DNA of 5,824 bases from a virus (IMGVR_UViG_2711768049_000003), one strand, 5' to 3'; positions 1 to 5,769 are shown, counted from the stretch's first letter. Numbers and translations are program-made. Notes: generated by a model not told the origin, from the letters alone.

Positions 1-3000
1 TCTTCTGTCCGGTTGCTGATTCAGCTTGAGCGTAGCGGGCACTGGGTGACAGAGAAGGATATCACCATTAACGGTAAGACCACCTCGCAGTACCTGACGT
101 CGGTGATAATCGGTAACCTCCCTGAGCGTCCCTTTAATATCCGGATAGTCAGGGAGACGGCGGACAGTACCACGGACCAGCTGCAGAACAGAACGCTCTG
201 GTCGTCATACACCGAAATCATCGATGTGAAACAGAGCTACCCGAACACAGCCATAGTGGGGCTGCAGGTGGATGCGGAGCAGTTCGGTGGGCAGCAGATG
301 GCGGTGAACTACCATATCCGCGGGCGCATCATCCAGGTGCCGTCAAACTATGACCCGGAAAAACGTACATACAGCGGTATCTGGGACGGGACTCTGAAAC
401 CGGCATACAGCAACAACCCGGCCTGGTGTCTGTGGGATATGCTGACGCATCCACGTTATGGTATGGGAAAGCGCCTCGGGGCCGCGGATGTGGACAAGTG
501 GGCGCTCTATGCCCTCGGACAGTACTGTGACCAGCCGGTTCCGGATGGCTTTGGTGGTACAGAACCCCGTATGACCTTTAATGCGTACCTGTCACAACAG
601 CGTAAGGCGTGGGACGTGCTGGGGGATTTCTGCTCTGCAATGCGCTGTATGCCGGTATGGAACGGACAGACGCTGACGTTTGTTCAGGACAGACCATCGG
701 ATGTTGTCTGGACTTATACCGCCGGTAATGTGGTGACGGGGGAGGATGGGGTAAGTTTTCATTACAGCTTCAGTGCCCTCAAGGACAGACACACGGCAGT
801 TGAGGTGAATTACACCGATCCGCAGAATGGCTGGCAGACATCGACTGAACTGGTGGAGGATCCGGATGCCATACTGCGCTACGGACGCAATCTTCTGAAG
901 ATGGATGCGTTCGGCTGTACCAGCCGTGGTCAGGCTCACCGGGCAGGCCTGTGGGTGATAAAGACCGAACTGCTGGAAACACAGACAGTGGATTTCAGTG
1001 TGGGGGCGGAGGGACTGCGTCACACGCCGGGCGATATCATTGAAATCAGTGATAATGCGTATGCCGGTACCGTGATCGGCGGGCGGATCCTGTCCGTCGA
1101 CAACGCCAGCCGGACCCTGACGCTTGACCGTGAAGTCACTCTCCCGGAAAAGGGCACATCCACGGTGAATCTGATAAACGGCAGTGGTAAGCCGGTGAGT
1201 GTGGATGTTACCGGGCAGCCATCACCTGACAGGATACAGATCAGCACACTGCCTGACGGGGTGGTGGAACACAGTATCTGGGGGCTGGCATTGCCGGGAC
1301 TGCGCCGCCGTCTGTTTCGGTGTGTGGCGATCCGCGAAAATGCGGACGGTACCTTCGCCATCACGGCGGTGCAGCATGTGCCGGAGAAGGAGGCCATCGT
1401 GGATAATGGTGCCACCTTTGAGCCGTTGTCCGGTTCGCTGAACAGTGTCACACCTCCGGCAGTACAGCATCTCACGGTGGAGGTAAGCGCGTCTGACGGT
1501 CAGTATCTGGCGGCGGCGAAATGGGACACGCCGAGGGTGGTGAAGGGCGTGCGCTTCAGTCTGCGCCTGACCAGCGGAACCGGTGAAAACAGCCGTCTGG
1601 TGACCAGCGCCATCACCGCCGACACGGAGCACCGTTTCAGTGGCCTGCCGCTGGGGGAATACACCCTGACGGTCAGGGCGATAAACAGCTATGGCCAGCT
1701 GGGGGAGCCTGCCACCACCACGTTCCGGATTAACGCACCGGCAGCACCTGCCACCATTGAACTGACCCCCGGCTATTTCCAGATAACAGCAGTGCCGCGT
1801 CTTGCGTTGTATGATCCGACGGTACAGTTTGAATTCTGGTTCTCAGAAAAACGCATCACGAACACGGCACAGGTGGAAACGTCCGCCCGTTATCTGGGGA
1901 CCGGCAGCCAGTGGAGCGTCTCCGGCTCGCACATTAAGCCAGGGACAGATTTCTGGTTTTATGTGCGCAGCGTCAACCTGGTGGGTAAATCCGTTTTTGT
2001 TGAAGCAACCGGACGGGCGAGCAATGATGCGGAAGGTTATCTGGACTTTTTCAAAGGAGAAATCGGGAAGACACATCTGGCACAGGGGATGTGGGAGCTG
2101 ATTGATAACAGTCAGCTTGATGATGAGATGGCGGAGATGAAGACCACCATCACAGAAACCCGCAATGAAATCACACAGACGGTCAATAAAATCCTGGAAG
2201 ACCAGAGTGTCACCATACAGCAGATACAGCGTGTGCAGAAGGAGACGGATGACAGCCTGAGCGCACTGTACATGCTGAAGGTGCAGAAAACGAAAAACGG
2301 TATTCCGTATGTTGCTGGTATTGGTGCGGGGATTGAGGATGTTGATGGCCAGACCCTGAGCAATATTCTGCTGCAGGCTGACCGTATCGCGATGATTAAC
2401 CCGGAGAACGGCAACACCACGCCGCTGTTTGTGGCGCAGGGGAATCAGTTGTTCATGAACGACGTATTCCTGAAGCGGTTGTTTGCGGTGAGCATCACCT
2501 CGTCCGGCAATCCCCCTGTGTTCTCCCTGACGCCGGAAGGCAGGCTGACGGCCCGTAATGCGGATATCAGCGGAAATATTAATGCGAACTCTGGCACGCT
2601 CAATAATGTGACCATTAACCAGAACTGCCGGATTCTGGGAAAACTGTCTGCAAACCAGATTGAAGGTGACCTGGTCAAAACAGTGGGGAAAGCTTTCCCA
2701 CGGAATAACAGTTATGCCAGTGGCACTATAACGGTCACCGTTTATGATGACCAGGGCTTCGACAGGCAGATCATCATTCCACCGGTACTGTTCCGGGGGG
2801 CGAGACATGAGCACCAGTCCAGCAAAGATCACACTTCAACATGGTATTCCACGTGTCAGTTACAGGTGCAGATGAACGGAAGGGTAATTTTTCATGAGCC
2901 GGCAACGGATGTCACCCGGGTGTTTTCGTCCGTCATTGATATGCCGGCAGGACGGGGTCATGTGACCCTGACGTTTAATGTGTGGTCGAACGGGGTGAAC

Positions 3001-3081
3001 CACTGGACGCCGACAACATACATCAGTGATTTACTGGTTGTGGTCATGAAAAAATCCACGGCGGGTATCAGTATTTCGTGA
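1..3081 (+). CDS. J: Lambda J-like central tail fibre / host-specificity protein, 5'-truncated by the window edge (C-terminal ~1027 codons present)
   Basis: Reading frame is open from nt 1 with no stop until TGA at 3079-3081; the listed ORF 13..3081 begins at an internal TTG, so the real start lies upstream of the window. The translation reads like lambda J-family proteins from memory, with fibronectin-III-like beta-rich repeats in the middle (e.g. [27 protein letters not shown]...[28 protein letters not shown]) and a distinct C-terminal ~250-aa domain. Position directly upstream of a side tail fibre gene fits lambdoid synteny. Confidence 0.88.
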
Positions 3082-3278
3082 ACATGATGACCGGAATTGC
3101 CGGAAGGATATAAAACCGTACAGTATGCGCGGGTGCCTTTGGCTGATGGCCGGAGGGAACACCTGAAGGCCTGATGTGAAAAGGCCCCGAGTCAACTTCA
3201 ATGTTAACCCGAGGCCCTGAACCGTCTACCTTAAGCAAGTGGCAGGTTAGCGCCTCTCCGTAATAAGGAGCAAGTTCT

Positions 3279-3389
3279 GTGTCGCAAAAACCGTTAAAAA
3301 CCACCGTGATTTGTATCACGGTAGTGCTCATTATCTGGATCACCCACAGTTCACTGTGTGAATTCCGGTTCCGGATAGCACCTTTTTAA
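3279..3389 (+). CDS. Candidate small membrane peptide (36 aa), Hok/Gef-family-like type I toxin, possibly C-terminally shortened
   Basis: GTG start at 3279 lies 8 nt after a consensus Shine-Dalgarno AAGGAG (3265-3270). Translation is (M)SQKPLKTTVICITVVLIIWITHSSLCEFRFRIAPF, stop TAA at 3387-3389. It has a ~15-residue hydrophobic core followed by a polar/charged L-C-E-x-R-x-R motif, resembling Hok/Gef as recalled (Gef ...VICITAVVAALVTRKDLCEVHIR...). It is too short for the ORF track and about 10 residues shorter than canonical Hok proteins. Confidence 0.4.
   Translation: MSQKPLKTTVICITVVLIIWITHSSLCEFRFRIAPF
3284..3322 (-). terminator. Possible minus-strand hairpin plus T-tract (candidate antisense-RNA terminator or mRNA structure)
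   Basis: Perfect 8-bp inverted repeat ACCGTGAT (3303-3310) / ATCACGGT (3315-3322) with a 4-nt loop. On the minus strand the stem is followed by GGTTTTTAACGGTTTTT (complement of + 3284-3302). No flanking minus-strand gene is evident, so function is uncertain. Confidence 0.22.
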
Positions 3390-3410
3390 TCCTGTAAACC
3401 ACGATTTTTA

Positions 3411-3444
3411 CCGCAGACCGGGAAACCGGCACTGCGGTTTTTTT
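3411..3444 (+). terminator. Rho-independent terminator (hairpin plus T7 tract) at the end of the J-stf intergenic insert
   Basis: CCGCAG (3411-3416) pairs with CTGCGG (3432-3437), with an inner CCGG/CCGG extension, and is followed immediately by TTTTTTT (3438-3444). It sits 22 nt after the small ORF stop and 13 nt before the stf ATG. Confidence 0.7.
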
Positions 3445-3457
3445 ATGGGGAAAATCT

Positions 3458-4864
3458 ATGGCAGTCAGAATATCGGGTGTGCTGAAGGACGGCGCGGGGA
3501 AGCCGGTACCGGGATGCACAATAGAACTGAAAGCGCGACGCACCACAGAAACGGTGATTGTCACTACGGTGGCATACGGGCAGCCGGGGGAGACAGGCAG
3601 CTACAGTATGGATGTTGAACCGGGGCTGTACCGTGTGACCCTGAACACAGAAGGGCGTATGCCGTCATACGTCGGTGACATTCTGGTGAAGGCGGACTCT
3701 GCACCGGGAACACTGAATAAATTCCTGATGGACTTTGAGGATGCGCCATATTATCCGAAAGCCCTCGCTGAGCTGGAAGCGGTGGCTGCGGAAATACTGA
3801 AGCGTGCTGAAGCCTCCGCAGCCAGTGCAGAGGAGGCCAAAAAACGGGCAGAGAATGCCAGGGGGCCGAAGGGTGATAAAGGTGACCCGGGACCGCAGGG
3901 GGTACAGGGACCGAAAGGTGAGACAGGTGCAACCGGGCCACAGGGTGAGCGTGGTGCAACAGGGGCACAGGGTGTTCCGGGCCCCAAAGGGGATACCGGA
4001 GCCACAGGACCTGAGGGTAAAGCCGGTCCTGTGGGACCAAAAGGTGACAGGGGGGACACAGGGCCCAGAGGTGAACGGGGTGAAAAGGGAGAGAAAGGAG
4101 ATCCGGGTGGCCCTCCAGGGCCAAAGGGAGATCCGGGACCACAGGGGCCTGCCGGGCCTCAGGGAAAATCAGGCAGCCTTGAAGATATTACAGACAGGGA
4201 AGCTTTCATCCGTGAGCTTGGTGTGCCCAGAGCATACGGGCGTGACATTTCAACCGGAGCAGGTGAGTGGACGACAGAAGAGTTTGTTGCCTGGCTGAAA
4301 GAGCAGGGGGCATTTGACCATACCTGCTGGATAATGAAGGCATCACTGCCAGCGGCGATGAATAAGGCCATCACTGATGTCGGACCGGGGAAACTCAATC
4401 TGGGCGGCTGTACCATTGAAGTGATGGGAACATATGACGCCGCCATTGTACGGGTCACCATTGGTGAATACGGTGCAACGGGGTTTATTAATGGCACGGT
4501 CTGTACCTGTACGGTTTATGGCGATACCCGGAAATACCACTGGCGGGTGGATTACGGTACCAGGAATAAACCCACGACGGCGAGTCTGGCTGTCAATGGC
4601 TGGGAACGTGATGAGGCTACCGGACGGATGCGACAATGGGGTACGCTTGTGATAAGTGAATCCGATGGTCAGGCGTTATCACTGCACTCCATCCGTTTTC
4701 CGGTGGTTTTTCCTTCAGCAGTGCTGAATGTTCAGGTTTCTCCGGTGGGGGAGCCCGGGAAAATTCCTGGATACACTCTGTCCTCACCGTCATTGCAGTC
4801 GGTGACACTGAGGACTGTCAGAGGAACCTCCGGTAAGTTTTTCTGGGAAGCGACCGGATACTGA
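3458..4864 (+). CDS. stf: Side tail fibre protein with lambda Stf-like N-terminal domain, central collagen-like Gly-X-Y tract and a distinct C-terminal (putative receptor-binding) domain
   Basis: ATG at 3458 preceded by GGGGA (3447-3451). The N-terminus [28 protein letters not shown]... closely resembles the lambda Stf N-terminus as recalled ([26 protein letters not shown]). An Ala/Glu-rich helical segment is followed by 34 Gly-X-Y triplets (aa 136-239), then a ~230-aa Gly-poor C-terminal domain. Stop TGA at 4862-4864. Confidence 0.9.
3863..4177 (+). repeat. Collagen-like Gly-X-Y coding repeat (27 uninterrupted triplets, a one-residue register break at GG, then 7 more)
   Basis: Translation G136-S240 of the stf ORF reads [104 protein letters not shown]. 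The DNA shows the matching GGN-rich 9-bp periodicity, which also produces the spurious minus-strand ORFs here. Confidence 0.9.
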
Positions 4865-4873
4865 GGAGGGATT

Positions 4874-5098
4874 ATGGAGCGTTATATTTTTTCACCGTCC
4901 GCGAATATGTTTTATCCGGCCTCCCTGCGTGCCGTTTACGAGACTACCGGAAACTGGCCTGTGGATGGTATAGAGGTGGACTATGCCGTGTATAAAGTTT
5001 TTGCAGCGGATGCTGCACCGGCGGGCATGAAGCGGGGAGTCGGTACGGAAAAAATGCCGGTCTGGGTGCCGGTATCGGAAGAGGGCACGGGAAAATGA
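4874..5098 (+). CDS. Small protein (74 aa) resembling the N-terminal domain of phage tail fibre assembly (Tfa) proteins
   Basis: Very strong Shine-Dalgarno GAGGAGGG (4863-4870) overlapping the stf stop, ATG at 4874. The translation MERYIFSPSANMFYPASLRAVYETTGNWPVDGIEVDYAVYKVF...AP.GMKRGVG...PVWV fits the conserved N-terminal pattern of Tfa proteins as recalled (FYPA-L---Y---G-WP-DG--V ... P-GK-R-G ... P-W). Its stop TGA (5096-5098) overlaps the next ATG in an ATGA junction. Confidence 0.75.
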   Translation: MERYIFSPSANMFYPASLRAVYETTGNWPVDGIEVDYAVYKVFAADAAPAGMKRGVGTEKMPVWVPVSEEGTGK

Positions 5099-5769
5099 TG
5101 CATGTCAGAAATTTTTCGTATTACACACCGGCAGAGCCGGATGTGGCGGGTGCGATATACCTGAAATCTGAGGATGGTCAGGACTGGTATGAATGCCATT
5201 CCAGGTTTGCGGAAGACACGCTGAAGGTGGTGTATGACAGCCGTGGTGTGATTACGGGATATGGTAAGGACATTAAGTTGTTGTGGCCGGTGAACCAGAG
5301 TGTGGCTGAAGTGCCGGACGCACCGGAAAGCCTGAAAATTGACCTGAGCGGACGCTGGGGATTTGACGGGGAAAAAATCACCGACCTGCTGACGGCTGAC
5401 AGAGCACGTGAACAGAAGGGGGCAGAAATAAATGCCTGGCGAAGTGCCATGGAAAATGCGGAGTATGTGTTTGAGTACAATGGACGGAAGTGGGACTACG
5501 GCAAGGTGACTCAGGTTCGTCTTGAGCCGTCGGTGGCAGCAGCAAAAGCGGGAATACTGCCGGAGGGATTTTTCTGGACAGATGCAGAAAATAATGACGT
5601 GCCGATGACAGCGGAGGCTTTGATCGCGCTCAGCGCCGCGGCAGAAAAGGCGATGTTTCAGAAAGGGATGGAAATCCACGTTCGCCAGCGCATGATGAAG
5701 AAAGAGCTGGAAAAGCTGACCAGTGCGGATGAGATACTGGCATATAAGGTTGGCTGGGCACAGGAATAA
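5095..5769 (+). CDS. Tail fibre assembly / chaperone-like protein (224 aa), N-terminal region resembling the P2 gpG / Mu U family
   Basis: ATGA overlap with the upstream ORF indicates translational coupling; same strand and operon as stf. Residues ~20-95 (IYLKSEDGQDWYECHSRFAEDTLKVVYDSRGVITGYGKD...SVAEVPDAPE) match the recalled P2 gpG/Mu U N-terminal pattern (W.WSEDGKNWYEE...DTIKIVYD...SVVEVPDI). The C-terminal half does not show the typical Tfa C-terminal ...PDIEWP motif. Stop TAA at 5767-5769. Confidence 0.75.
   Translation: MMHVRNFSYYTPAEPDVAGAIYLKSEDGQDWYECHSRFAEDTLKVVYDSRGVITGYGKDIKLLWPVNQSVAEVPDAPESLKIDLSGRWGFDGEKITDLLTADRAREQKGAEINAWRSAMENAEYVFEYNGRKWDYGKVTQVRLEPSVAAAKAGILPEGFFWTDAENNDVPMTAEALIALSAAAEKAMFQKGMEIHVRQRMMKKELEKLTSADEILAYKVGWAQE

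What the first reader, a model, noticed from the sequence alone, without database searches (positions are those of the whole stretch)
3284..3358. Stem-loop with minus-strand T-tract, and a second palindrome, inside the 5' half of the small ORF
An 8-bp perfect stem (3303-3310 / 3315-3322) lies just inside the candidate toxin ORF. Read on the minus strand it is followed by GGTTTTTAACGGTTTTT, which would terminate an antisense RNA running across the ORF toward its start codon and RBS. Type I toxins are typically controlled by cis-encoded antisense sRNAs and by mRNA folding, so this could be an antitoxin-RNA terminator or an mRNA structural element. A second near-palindrome CACAGT-TC-ACTGTG (3345-3358) lies further in.
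Basis: seen in the sequence. Interest (0 to 1): 0.45.

Follow-up and report, generated by a model that had tools for sequence, protein, structure and literature searches.

The report
Conserved hairpin in decayed hok toxin gene
The stem-loop is real, but it is a conserved folding element inside the messenger RNA of a known Hok/Sok-type toxin-antitoxin locus, here a deletion-damaged prophage copy, and not the terminator of the antitoxin RNA, which lies about 100 bases upstream.

Summary
An 8-bp perfect stem sits at 3303-3310/3315-3322. On the minus strand it is followed by GGTTTTTAACGGTTTTT. A 6-bp palindrome lies at 3345-3358.

The small ORF (3279-3389) is a Hok/Gef-family type I toxin gene in a lambdoid prophage of E. 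coli M18, between gpJ and the tail-fibre gene. This copy has lost 103 bp. The deletion removed the last 14 codons of the 46-aa toxin and part of the mRNA.

The antitoxin-terminator reading is not supported. By homology, the Sok-like antisense RNA lies upstream (about 3237 to 3179, minus strand) and has its own 16-bp hairpin plus UUUU. That hairpin is 5-14 kcal/mol more stable on the minus strand in all 13 relatives. It adjoins the stem in only 9 of 27 distinct homologue sequences. No convincing minus-strand promoter feeds it.

The mRNA-structure reading is supported. Every one of about 10 sequence subgroups (86 loci) has a hairpin centred on the invariant Cys12 codon, with different arm sequences and compensatory changes. 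Its pairs have a mean predicted probability of 0.85-0.99 in full-length mRNAs.

This is an ordinary member of a known system, and interest is low.

The parts
3303..3322 (+). It encodes Thr9-Val-Ile-Cys12-Ile-Thr-Val15 of Hok, with the Cys12 codon in the loop. It is a conserved local hairpin of the hok mRNA coding region.
   Evidence: Searches show the stem and its energy. Searches show a hairpin present in all subgroups, mean pair probability 0.85-0.99, and 6 of 8 pairs changed on both sides. In the window's own transcript the 8 pairs have P 0.88-0.96.
3286..3302 (-). Minus-strand GGTTTTTAACGGTTTTT. It is the complement of codons Gln3-Lys-Pro-Leu-Lys-Thr8 (CAA AAA CCG TTA AAA ACC) and is also a 10-bp direct repeat (AAAAACCGTT/AAAAACCACC). 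Together with the stem it looks like an intrinsic terminator, but the arrangement is not conserved.
   Evidence: sequence; the proximal A-run adjoins the stem only in sequences that begin CCGTTAAAAACC (9 of 27). NCTC9112 has lost one 10-bp unit.
3279..3389 (+). Truncated hok ORF of 36 aa with a GTG start. Residues 1-34 match the 46-aa Hok of intact relatives; a short foreign tail and the stop codon follow the deletion junction.
   Evidence: family hits. (alignment with the intact 46-aa MSQKPLKTTVICITVVLIIWITHSSLCEFRFRIAGAEIAAFLQCKQ).
3371..3379 (.). Junction of a 103-bp deletion between imperfect direct repeats CCGGATAGC and CCGGATGGC. The deletion removes Hok codons 35-46, the 3' stem-loop of the mRNA, and the strand that pairs with the start-codon region.
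   Evidence: alignments; the same junction occurs in at least 7 of 5426 E. coli genomes; the partner strand lies in the deleted columns.
3131..3278 (+). The hok mRNA leader. It carries the 5' tac element GGGTGCC (3131-3137), the GAGG/dcb pairing region, and the hok Shine-Dalgarno AAGGAG (3265-3270).
   Evidence: Rfam RF01794 hit at 3131-3292 on the + strand, 34.9 bits, E 3.3e-5, below the gathering score of 59; tac/fbi and GAGGC/GCCUC helices in the consensus of 13 relatives.
3179..3237 (-). Predicted Sok-like antisense antitoxin RNA. It has a short 5' tail, a 16-bp hairpin (arms 3203-3218 and 3181-3196) and UUUU (3179-3182). The 5' end is inferred and may be off by a few nt.
   Evidence: -26 to -27.6 kcal/mol, z -4.4.: -26.1 on the minus strand against -12.9 on the + strand here, and the minus strand is favoured in 13 of 13 relatives; sokC is annotated at -49..-107 from the hokC start, and this RNA is predicted at about -42..-100.
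3244..3273 (-). Predicted promoter of the Sok-like RNA: -35 TTGCTC (3273->3268, overlapping the hok SD), an 18-nt spacer, and -10 TAACCT (3249->3244). It is weak here (6 of 12 matches).
   Evidence: at the homologous position relatives have TTGACT-18-TAACCT (933W) and TTTACT-17-TATCCT (L057), both 8 of 12. Placement follows the R1 arrangement (Sok -10 inside dcb; PMC9841398). This is an inference.
3097..3126 (+). Predicted hok promoter: -35 TTGCCG (3097-3102), an 18-nt spacer, and -10 CAGTAT (3121-3126), about 5-7 nt upstream of the GGGTGCC 5' end.
   Evidence: Sequence. ATTGCC and TATGCG are conserved in alignments A1 and A2. This is an inference; the site is below the threshold of the scan.
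3350..3362 (+). Small conserved hairpin TTCAC-TGT-GTGAA over the Ser-Leu-Cys-Glu codons.
   Evidence: pairs with compensatory changes (AU 5 / GU 4 / GC 3 at one pair; UA 6 / UG 3 / CG 2 at another); codons 19-31 fold as well or better on the + strand in all 14 representatives, by up to 13 kcal/mol.
3410..3444 (+). Intrinsic terminator of the hok transcript: ACCGCAG..CTGCGGT with an inner CCGG-GAAA-CCGG, followed by T7.
   Evidence: -18.7 kcal/mol, z -3.4; the terminator helix covaries in relatives.

Best explanation
The stem-loop is a local hairpin of the hok toxin mRNA (+ strand), inside a hok/sok-family type I toxin-antitoxin locus carried by a lambdoid prophage.

What is shown:
- In this Hok subfamily (46-aa toxin), a hairpin centred on the invariant Cys12 codon is kept in every subgroup.
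- The arms are built from the interchangeable hydrophobic codons on either side of Cys12. They co-vary, or slide by a codon, so that pairing is preserved.

What is inferred about its role:
- It acts as a folding scaffold inside the coding-region domain.
- That domain is closed by a long-range helix between the start-codon segment (AUGUCGCAA) and codons 38-41 (UUGCGGCGU). The helix helps keep the toxin start codon sequestered and the 5' part of the ORF out of the leader's switch elements (tac/ucb/dcb/fbi).

Status in this window:
- The element is probably a relic. A 103-bp deletion has removed the helix partner, the toxin C-terminus and the 3' stem-loop.
- The minus-strand T-tract is the complement of Gln-Lys and Lys-Thr codons.
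- The real antitoxin (Sok-like RNA) lies upstream at about 3237->3179.
For: Identity of the locus:
- Pfam HOK_GEF is above its cutoff. PHROG 251 scores 76.9 bits for the intact protein.
- The Rfam sok/hok-leader model hits the ORF's strand and ends at its start.
- Sister genomes annotate the ORF as a Hok/Gef family protein.

Hairpin conservation:
- 86 homologous loci were collected, giving 27 distinct sequences in about 10 subgroups. All fold into a hairpin around the Cys codon with different arm sequences.
Six of 8 pairs changed on both sides (for example CG 9 / UA 8, AU 7 / GC 6). At most 1 of 500 shuffles reaches four of the five measures; the fifth, further pair types, does not exceed the shuffles.
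- Codon-order permutation gives p <= 0.054 in 14 of 14 representatives.
- Mean pair probability is 0.85-0.99 in 12 of 12 full-length mRNAs and 0.88-0.96 in the window's own transcript.

Domain context:
- The RNAalifold consensus shows tac/fbi end-pairing with compensatory changes, and the helix between the start codon and codons 38-41.
- Removing the hairpin in silico by synonymous recoding lowers the probability of that helix from 0.87 to 0.38 (group A) and from 0.96 to 0.13 (group E).

R1-type hok:
- It has an analogous hairpin around the homologous Cys16 codon. There A227 pairs with U217 at P = 1.0.
- A227U is a synonymous loss-of-toxicity mutation of unknown mechanism (PMC9841398).

Against a protein-binding palindrome: complementarity is conserved, but the sequence is not.
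Against: - There is no strand asymmetry. 166 of 216 cells pair on the + strand against 163 on the minus strand, and the minus-strand hairpin is the more stable one in 9 of 14 representatives. The choice of the mRNA strand therefore rests on the mRNA being the only transcript expected here.
- The register differs between subgroups, so strict column-wise covariation holds for only part of the family. The 933W register gave no signal above shuffles.
- Synonymous-recoding nulls are only modestly exceeded (p 0.002-0.24), because the peptide itself is quasi-palindromic.
- hokC of K-12 shows no such hairpin, so this is not a universal Hok feature.
- The direction of the functional effect is unclear. 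My model says the hairpin helps silencing, whereas R1 A227U loses toxicity and R1 T204C (also in the stem) leaves protein levels normal (PMC9841398).
- All structure evidence is computational.
Confidence: 0.62

Rival explanations
1. On the minus strand, the hairpin plus U-tract is an intrinsic terminator. It would end a cis-antisense RNA that covers the hok ORF, or it would insulate the Sok-like promoter just downstream on that strand from read-in transcription.
For: - In the window, the minus-strand stem is 11 bp at -16 kcal/mol and is followed at once by UUUUU.
- The same terminator-like layout, with a different stem sequence, occurs in two other subgroups (L047-L050 and L056).
- The minus-strand hairpin is the more stable one in 9 of 14 representatives.
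- The site lies 11-28 nt upstream of the predicted Sok -35, a sensible place for an insulator.
Against: - The U-tract adjoins the stem in only 9 of 27 distinct sequences. In the others the nearest T-run is about 9-10 nt away, yet the hairpin is still conserved.
- The A-runs are fully explained as Lys/Gln/Thr codons.
- No minus-strand promoter lies on the required side. The best candidate scores 7 of 12 and sits inside the hok terminator.
- Such an RNA would stop short of the RBS.
- Canonical Sok RNAs lie upstream of the hok start (PMC9841398), and a strand-asymmetric Sok-like hairpin is present there.
- Neighbouring genes are all on the + strand, so read-in antisense transcription is not expected.
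Confidence: 0.1
2. The inverted repeat is a by-product of coding a quasi-palindromic hydrophobic peptide (T-V-I-C-I-T-V) with biased codons. It has no selected nucleic-acid function.
For: - Synonymous recodings of the same peptides still fold to a mean of -5 to -10 kcal/mol, and the observed value is exceeded in 10-24% of recodings for several representatives, including the window (p = 0.10).
- hokC lacks the hairpin.
- There is no strand asymmetry.
Against: - It does not explain why the peptide is quasi-palindromic around Cys12 in every subgroup, with different residues (TVICITV, IAICIAV, VAVCTAM, ITIFVVI, LLLCLTAVA).
- It does not explain why paired wobble positions co-vary (GCG/ATC against GCA/ATT).
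- All 14 representatives lie below every null mean, and codon-order permutation gives p <= 0.054 in all of them.
Confidence: 0.2
3. The phased T-tracts act at the DNA level as an UP-element-like or bent-DNA enhancer of the Sok-like promoter, and the inverted repeat is an operator for a dimeric DNA-binding protein.
For: - On the minus strand the T-runs fall at about -49..-53 and -59..-63 from the predicted Sok start, the zone where UP elements lie. This rests on the sequence and my own knowledge of UP elements.
- The distal run TTTTTGCGAC is invariant in nearly all relatives.
Against: - The invariance of ATGTCGCAAAAA is already explained by the start, Ser, Gln and Lys codons and by its pairing with UUGCGGCGU.
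- The proximal run is absent from most subgroups.
- An operator would conserve its sequence, but the arms differ in every subgroup while complementarity is kept.
- The Sok promoter position is itself only inferred.
Confidence: 0.05

Closest known systems
hok/sok of plasmid R1 (type I toxin-antitoxin; Gerdes laboratory; revisited in PMC9841398)
   Same: - A small Hok/Gef membrane toxin.
- A long, highly structured mRNA with 5' tac / 3' fbi end-pairing, which is compensatory in relatives.
- A GAGG/dcb helix.
- An antisense RNA encoded opposite the leader, with its promoter overlapping the hok SD region.
- A start-codon segment paired with the Ala-Ala-Phe codons.
- A hairpin around the transmembrane Cys codon.
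   Different: - The toxin is 46 aa rather than 52 aa, and only distantly related. NCBIfam Hok models score 37-38 bits against cutoffs of 73-89.
- The Rfam leader model scores below its gathering score.
- No long mok frame overlaps hok. A 20-aa ORF ends before the hok SD and is not conserved.
- The locus is prophage-borne, between gpJ and the tail fibre, not on a plasmid.
- The window copy has lost 103 bp.
Prophage Hok subfamily PHROG 251 ('MokW-like host killing'), for example the unannotated locus downstream of lom in phage 933W/Sp5 and the 'Hok/Gef family protein' genes between gpJ and the tail fibre in E. coli prophages
   Same: - The same protein family: 65-100% identity to the intact form.
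- The same leader, Sok-like hairpin and tac/fbi elements.
- The same genomic niche in lambdoid tail regions.
- A hairpin at the Cys12 codon in all members.
   Different: - The window copy is the 103-bp deletion allele, with a GTG start and a 36-aa product.
- In the 933W type, the 5' arm of the hairpin is shifted by one codon and the T-tract is not adjacent.
hokW-sokW of Sakai prophage 5 (PMC8621323), the experimentally studied prophage hok/sok
   Same: A prophage-encoded hok/sok-family type I system in E. coli. It shows that such loci can be functional and can assist phage release.
   Different: It is a different gene. The primers in Table 2 of that paper show that HokW begins MKQQKAM (Gef/HokD-like, 51 aa), not MSQK. 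I first equated the two and then rejected that.
hokC/mokC/sokC of E. coli K-12
   Same: It provides an annotated reference for the architecture. sokC lies at -49..-107 from the hokC start and overlaps the mokC start. The Sok-like RNA predicted here lies at about -42..-100.
   Different: - hokC has a full mok frame overlapping hok.
- It shows no significant hairpin at its transmembrane Cys codon.

Membership tests
[quoted passage not shown] | A small ORF encoding a Hok/Gef-family membrane toxin | tested here: met
   Pfam PF01848 scores 27.8 bits against a cutoff of 22, E 1.9e-6, on residues 10-32. PHROG 251 scores 53.5 bits for the window ORF and 76.9 bits for the intact relative.
[quoted passage not shown] | A complete toxin including the conserved C-terminal (periplasmic) part | tested here: not met
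   The window ORF is 36 aa. Relatives are 46 aa, and the last 14 codons are lost through a 103-bp deletion. Premature stop codons in R1 hok and a stop-codon (truncated) R1 Hok construct abolish toxicity (PMC9841398; bioRxiv 10.1101/2025.08.07.668861).
[quoted passage not shown] | A structured leader recognised by the Rfam model RF01794 (sok / hok leader) | tested here: inconclusive
   There is a full-length match (model positions 1-157) on the ORF's strand at 3131-3292. It scores 34.9 bits, E 3.3e-5, below the gathering score of 59.
[quoted passage not shown] | 5' tac / 3' fbi end-pairing of the toxin mRNA | tested here: inconclusive
   In 13 relatives GGGUGCC pairs with GGCACCC, and an adjacent 3-bp extension shows 4-6 compensatory changes. 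In the window only GCACC (3378-3382) remains, and the predicted fold no longer forms the end-pairing.
[quoted passage not shown] | A short cis-antisense RNA (Sok) opposite the leader, upstream of the hok start, with a terminator hairpin | tested here: met
   This was tested in silico only. There is a 16-bp hairpin plus UUUU at 3179-3218 on the minus strand. The minus strand is favoured by 5-14 kcal/mol in 13 of 13 relatives. Promoter-like sites occur at the homologous place in relatives. The position agrees with the annotated sokC. Expression was not testable.
[quoted passage not shown] | A mok reading frame that overlaps hok and couples its translation | tested here: not met
   The only upstream ORF on the + strand (3201-3263, 20 aa) stops before the hok SD. 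Its frame and length are not conserved in 933W or in the intact allele.
Rho-independent (intrinsic) terminator, minus strand | A stable G+C-containing stem-loop followed directly by a U-tract | tested here: met
   An 11-bp stem at -16.0 kcal/mol is followed by UUUUUAACGGUUUUU. The consensus scan did not list it.
Rho-independent (intrinsic) terminator, minus strand | The hairpin and adjacent U-tract are conserved together in homologues | tested here: not met
   The hairpin is conserved in 27 of 27 distinct sequences. The U-tract is adjacent in only 9 of 27, all with the PLKT N-terminus.
Rho-independent (intrinsic) terminator, minus strand | A transcription unit that reads into it | tested here: not met
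   No promoter-like site at 9 of 12 or better was found. The best minus-strand candidate between 3323 and 3470 scores 7 of 12 and lies within the hok terminator. Flanking genes are on the + strand. Transcripts themselves cannot be tested with these tools.

The most novel reading that the evidence does not exclude
The Cys-codon hairpin is a selected, functional element of Hok-family mRNAs. It scaffolds the helix that hides the toxin start codon, or is otherwise needed for correct Hok expression. In doing so it has shaped the amino-acid sequence of the toxin's transmembrane helix: residues flanking Cys12 co-vary (Val10/Thr14 against Ala10/Ala14) to keep RNA pairing. In the PLKT subgroups the same hairpin may double as a minus-strand terminator that shields the Sok promoter. 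This would also explain the unexplained synonymous suppressor A227U in R1 hok.
Probability: 0.3. Interest if true: 0.45.

Novelty: new member of a known kind. Interest (0 to 1): 0.22.

Why it matters
[quoted passage not shown] PGAP labels it only as a 21-aa hypothetical protein. Its antitoxin RNA should be placed upstream of the toxin start, not inside the ORF.

For biology the gain is modest. The analysis gives a clean comparative example of an RNA hairpin in a toxin coding region that is maintained by compensatory, partly non-synonymous substitutions. [quoted passage not shown]

No new kind of system is involved.

Tried and rejected
1. I first equated the 933W/Sp5 relative with the published hokW-sokW. 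The primers in PMC8621323 show that HokW is a different, Gef-like protein, so I rejected this.
2. The built-in promoter/terminator scan found nothing in 3000-3520. It also missed the clear + strand terminator, so I replaced it with explicit folding and a lower-threshold promoter scan.
3. I tried to use G-U against A-C asymmetry to decide which strand the hairpin works on. The result was inconclusive: 166 against 163 paired cells.
4. Counting pairs in the 933W register (7 bp, 9-nt loop) across all sequences gave no signal above shuffles. The hairpin slides between subgroups, so no single column-wise structure fits all of them.
5. I tested whether the hairpin is universal in Hok genes. hokC of K-12 does not show it (p about 0.8).
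6. I looked for a conserved mok frame and found none.
7. I tried to read Steif & Meyer 2012, 'The hok mRNA family', to see whether the coding-region hairpin is already described. The paper is not held, and a guessed PMC id was a different paper. Whether the R1 hairpin is explicitly named in the literature therefore remains unchecked.
8. It proposed a weaker alternative that uses the 3' arm, with several broken cells. Per-sequence ensembles favour the Cys-codon hairpin.

Full report
**Context**

The window is identical to E. coli M18 (mouse isolate) chromosome NZ_CP010219.1. It lies in the tail region of a lambdoid prophage. The genes are gpJ (13-3081), a 376-nt spacer, a collagen-repeat tail fibre (3458-4864), a tail-fibre assembly gene (4874-5098) and a DUF4376 gene (5095-5769), all on the + strand. 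The finding lies in the spacer.

**Observation**

- The 8-bp perfect stem ACCGTGAT/ATCACGGT (3303-3310/3315-3322, loop TTGT) is there.
- As RNA it folds to -12.6 kcal/mol on the + strand (z -4.8; 0 of 200 shuffles fold as well).
- On the minus strand it forms an 11-bp stem of -16.0 kcal/mol (z -3.6), followed directly by UUUUUAACGGUUUUU.
- The second palindrome (3345-3358) exists, but it would need a 2-nt loop and is not beyond chance on its own.

**What the locus is**

- The 36-aa ORF (3279-3389) hits Pfam HOK_GEF above its cutoff and PHROG 251. NCBIfam Hok models match only weakly.
- The Rfam family RF01794 ('sok') matches 3131-3292 end to end on the same strand as the ORF, finishing at its start codon. 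The score is 34.9 bits with E 3.3e-5, below the gathering score of 59. Its consensus starts with the hok-mRNA 5' end, so it describes the sense leader.
- Sister genomes carry the same spacer with a gene annotated as 'Hok/Gef family protein' of 46 aa.
- Hok genes are known to be enriched in prophages (bioRxiv 10.1101/2025.08.07.668861).
- A relative sits downstream of lom in phage 933W. It is not the published hokW: the primers of PMC8621323 show that HokW begins MKQQKAM.

**The window copy is damaged**

- Alignment with intact alleles shows a 103-bp deletion between the imperfect direct repeats CCGGATAGC and CCGGATGGC, with the junction at 3371-3379.
- The deletion removes the last 14 Hok codons, the 3' stem-loop of the mRNA, and the strand that pairs with the start-codon segment.
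- The same junction occurs in at least 7 of 5426 complete E. coli genomes. Several of these copies show further decay:
  - A39 has a transposase fragment in place of the leader.
  - CI5 has a G->A change in the stem.
  - M18 and CI5 start with GTG rather than ATG.
- PGAP annotates only a 21-aa hypothetical protein in M18.
- Premature stops abolish toxicity of R1 Hok (PMC9841398). The product is therefore probably inactive, but this is an inference.

**Where the antitoxin is**

- In K-12 the annotated sokC lies at -49 to -107 from the hokC start. In R1, Sok is complementary to the leader and its -10 lies in dcb (PMC9841398).
- At the homologous place in the window, the minus strand forms a 16-bp hairpin (3181-3218) of about -26 kcal/mol followed by UUUU.
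- This hairpin is 5-14 kcal/mol more stable on the minus strand than on the + strand in all 13 subgroup representatives. On the + strand, three positions are C-A mismatches that become G-U pairs in the antisense RNA.
- Promoter-like sites sit just upstream on that strand in relatives: TTGACT-18-TAACCT in 933W and TTTACT-17-TATCCT in L057. In the window the equivalent is the weak TTGCTC-18-TAACCT (3273->3244).
- The Sok-like RNA is thus predicted at about 3237->3179.

**Is the stem a minus-strand terminator?**

- In the window it has the right anatomy.
- However, the T-runs are the complement of CAA-AAA (Gln3-Lys4) and AAA-ACC (Lys7-Thr8).
- The proximal run adjoins the stem in only 9 of 27 distinct homologue sequences, those with the N-terminus ..PLKT. 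In the others the nearest T-run is about 9-10 nt from the stem, yet the hairpin is still kept.
- No promoter reads into it. One search found none, and the best minus-strand candidate scores 7 of 12 and sits inside the hok terminator.
- An RNA ending at 3284-3300 would not cover the RBS (3265-3270).
- I rate this reading at about 0.1.

**Is the stem a conserved structure?**

- I collected 86 homologous loci: 7 from genomes of several genera and 79 viral contigs. They fall into about 10 subgroups with 54-100% protein identity.
- In every subgroup a hairpin is centred on the Cys12 codon, or on the equivalent Phe codon in one Salmonella diarizonae locus. The arm sequences differ:
  - ACCGTGAT/ATCACGGT (window type)
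  - ACCGTCA/TGACGGT (933W type; 5' arm shifted by one codon)
  - CCATCGCAAT/ATTGCGGTGG
  - TCGCGGT/ACCGCGA
  - CCATCACG/CGTGACGG
  - ACCGCC/GGCGGT
  - TGCTACTG/CAGTAGCG
  - GTCATCACAA/TTGTGGTGAT
- In the window's register, 76.9% of 216 cells pair and 6 of 8 pairs show changes on both sides (for example CG 9 / UA 8, AU 7 / GC 6). At most 1 of 500 shuffles reaches the observed percentage paired, double-change counts or covariation score; the count of further pair types does not exceed the shuffles. Slid controls are lower, except at the codon period of +/-3.
- Some compensations are at paired wobble positions. Others are non-synonymous on both sides (Val10/Thr14 against Ala10/Ala14).
- Energies beat codon-order permutation in 14 of 14 representatives (p <= 0.054). 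They beat synonymous recoding less strongly (p 0.002-0.24), because the peptides are themselves quasi-palindromic around the invariant Cys.
- In full-length mRNAs (tac to fbi), the hairpin's pairs have mean probability 0.85-0.99 in 12 of 12 representatives. In the window's own transcript the values are 0.88-0.96.
- Because complementarity is conserved but sequence is not, a protein-binding palindrome is unlikely.

**What it may do (inference)**

- The RNAalifold consensus of 13 representatives recovers the canonical tac/fbi end-pairing with compensatory changes, the GAGGC/GCCUC (mok-SD/dcb-like) helix, and a long-range helix AUGUCGCAA/UUGCGGCGU that pairs the hok start codon with codons 38-41. 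The Cys-codon hairpin sits inside the domain closed by that helix.
- Replacing the hairpin by non-pairing synonymous codons in silico lowers the helix probability from 0.87 to 0.38 (group A) and from 0.96 to 0.13 (group E). It raises the unpaired probability of the start codon from 0.17 to 0.43 and from 0.05 to 0.31.
- I therefore propose a scaffold role in keeping the toxin start codon sequestered and the ORF out of the leader's switch.
- An R1-type hok has an analogous hairpin around the homologous Cys16 codon, in which A227 pairs with U217. A227U is one of three synonymous loss-of-toxicity mutations of unknown mechanism in PMC9841398.

Caveats:
- The direction of that R1 effect does not obviously fit a pure silencer role.
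- Another R1 stem mutation (T204C) leaves protein levels normal.
- hokC shows no such hairpin.
- Wobble-pair counts do not favour either strand.
- All structure evidence is predicted.

**Second palindrome**

The conserved element there is TTCAC-TGT-GTGAA (3350-3362) over the Ser-Leu-Cys-Glu codons, with covariation. The surrounding region (codons 19-31) folds as well or better on the + strand in all 14 representatives, by up to 13 kcal/mol, which fits mRNA structure.

**Verdict**

- The 'type I toxin' premise and the 'mRNA structural element' option are supported. The 'antitoxin terminator' option is not.
- The locus is a decayed member of the well-known hok/sok family, in a prophage niche already documented.
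- Interest is low. The residual interest lies in the RNA-protein co-constraint at the Cys-codon hairpin and its possible link to unexplained R1 mutations.

Noticed in passing
window 3371-3379 (junction); intact relatives L002:1501-1979 and L004: The window carries a 103-bp deletion allele of the hok locus, formed between 9-bp imperfect direct repeats (CCGGATAGC/CCGGATGGC). It is present in at least 7 of 5426 complete E. coli genomes. Several copies show extra decay: a 10-bp loss in NCTC9112, a transposase fragment in A39, and stem mismatches in CI5 and NCTC9112.
   Followed up: yes
window 3179-3237, minus strand: This is the predicted Sok-like antitoxin RNA. Its 16-bp terminator hairpin is 5-14 kcal/mol more stable on the minus strand than on the + strand in all 13 relatives tested.
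   Followed up: yes
window 3201-3263 (+); L005:466-540: The only mok-like upstream ORF is short (20 aa here, 24 aa in 933W, about 10 aa in the intact allele). It ends before the hok Shine-Dalgarno and is not conserved in frame, unlike the overlapping mok of R1 and hokC. How hok translation is coupled in this subfamily is unclear.
   Followed up: partly
window 3279-3287, and columns 286-301 of alignment A4 (deleted in the window): A conserved long-range helix pairs the hok start-codon segment AUGUCGCAA with UUGCGGCGU (codons 38-41). R1-type hok has the analogous GCCAUGAAA/UUUCAUGGC. In the window the partner strand has been deleted.
   Followed up: partly
window 3286-3302: AAAAACCGTTAAAAACC is a 10-bp direct repeat in the first codons of hok. 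NCTC9112 has lost exactly one unit, giving a frameshift, so it looks like a slippage hot spot.
   Followed up: partly
L094 (IncFII plasmid, R1-type hok), mRNA positions 203-241: R1-type hok has a long hairpin around the Cys16 codon. The published synonymous suppressor A227U and the low-expression mutants T208G and T223C (PMC9841398) all fall within it.
   Followed up: partly
window 3830-4170, within the tail-fibre gene 3458-4864: There is a long collagen-like Gly-X-Y repeat (Pfam Collagen) in the prophage tail fibre. On the opposite strand and in other frames it generates long spurious ORFs.
   Followed up: no
window 4874-5098 and 5095-5769: A 74-aa tail-fibre assembly gene and a DUF4376 gene overlap by ATGA. 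The DUF4376 protein also has a faint Caudo_TAP match.
   Followed up: no
L008, L009, L011 (genome-contig hits): Near-identical enterobacterial-type hok loci appear in assemblies labelled Planococcaceae, Vagococcus and Xanthomonas pisi. The contigs are mostly short or from a metagenome-assembled genome, and contamination seems more likely than transfer.
   Followed up: no
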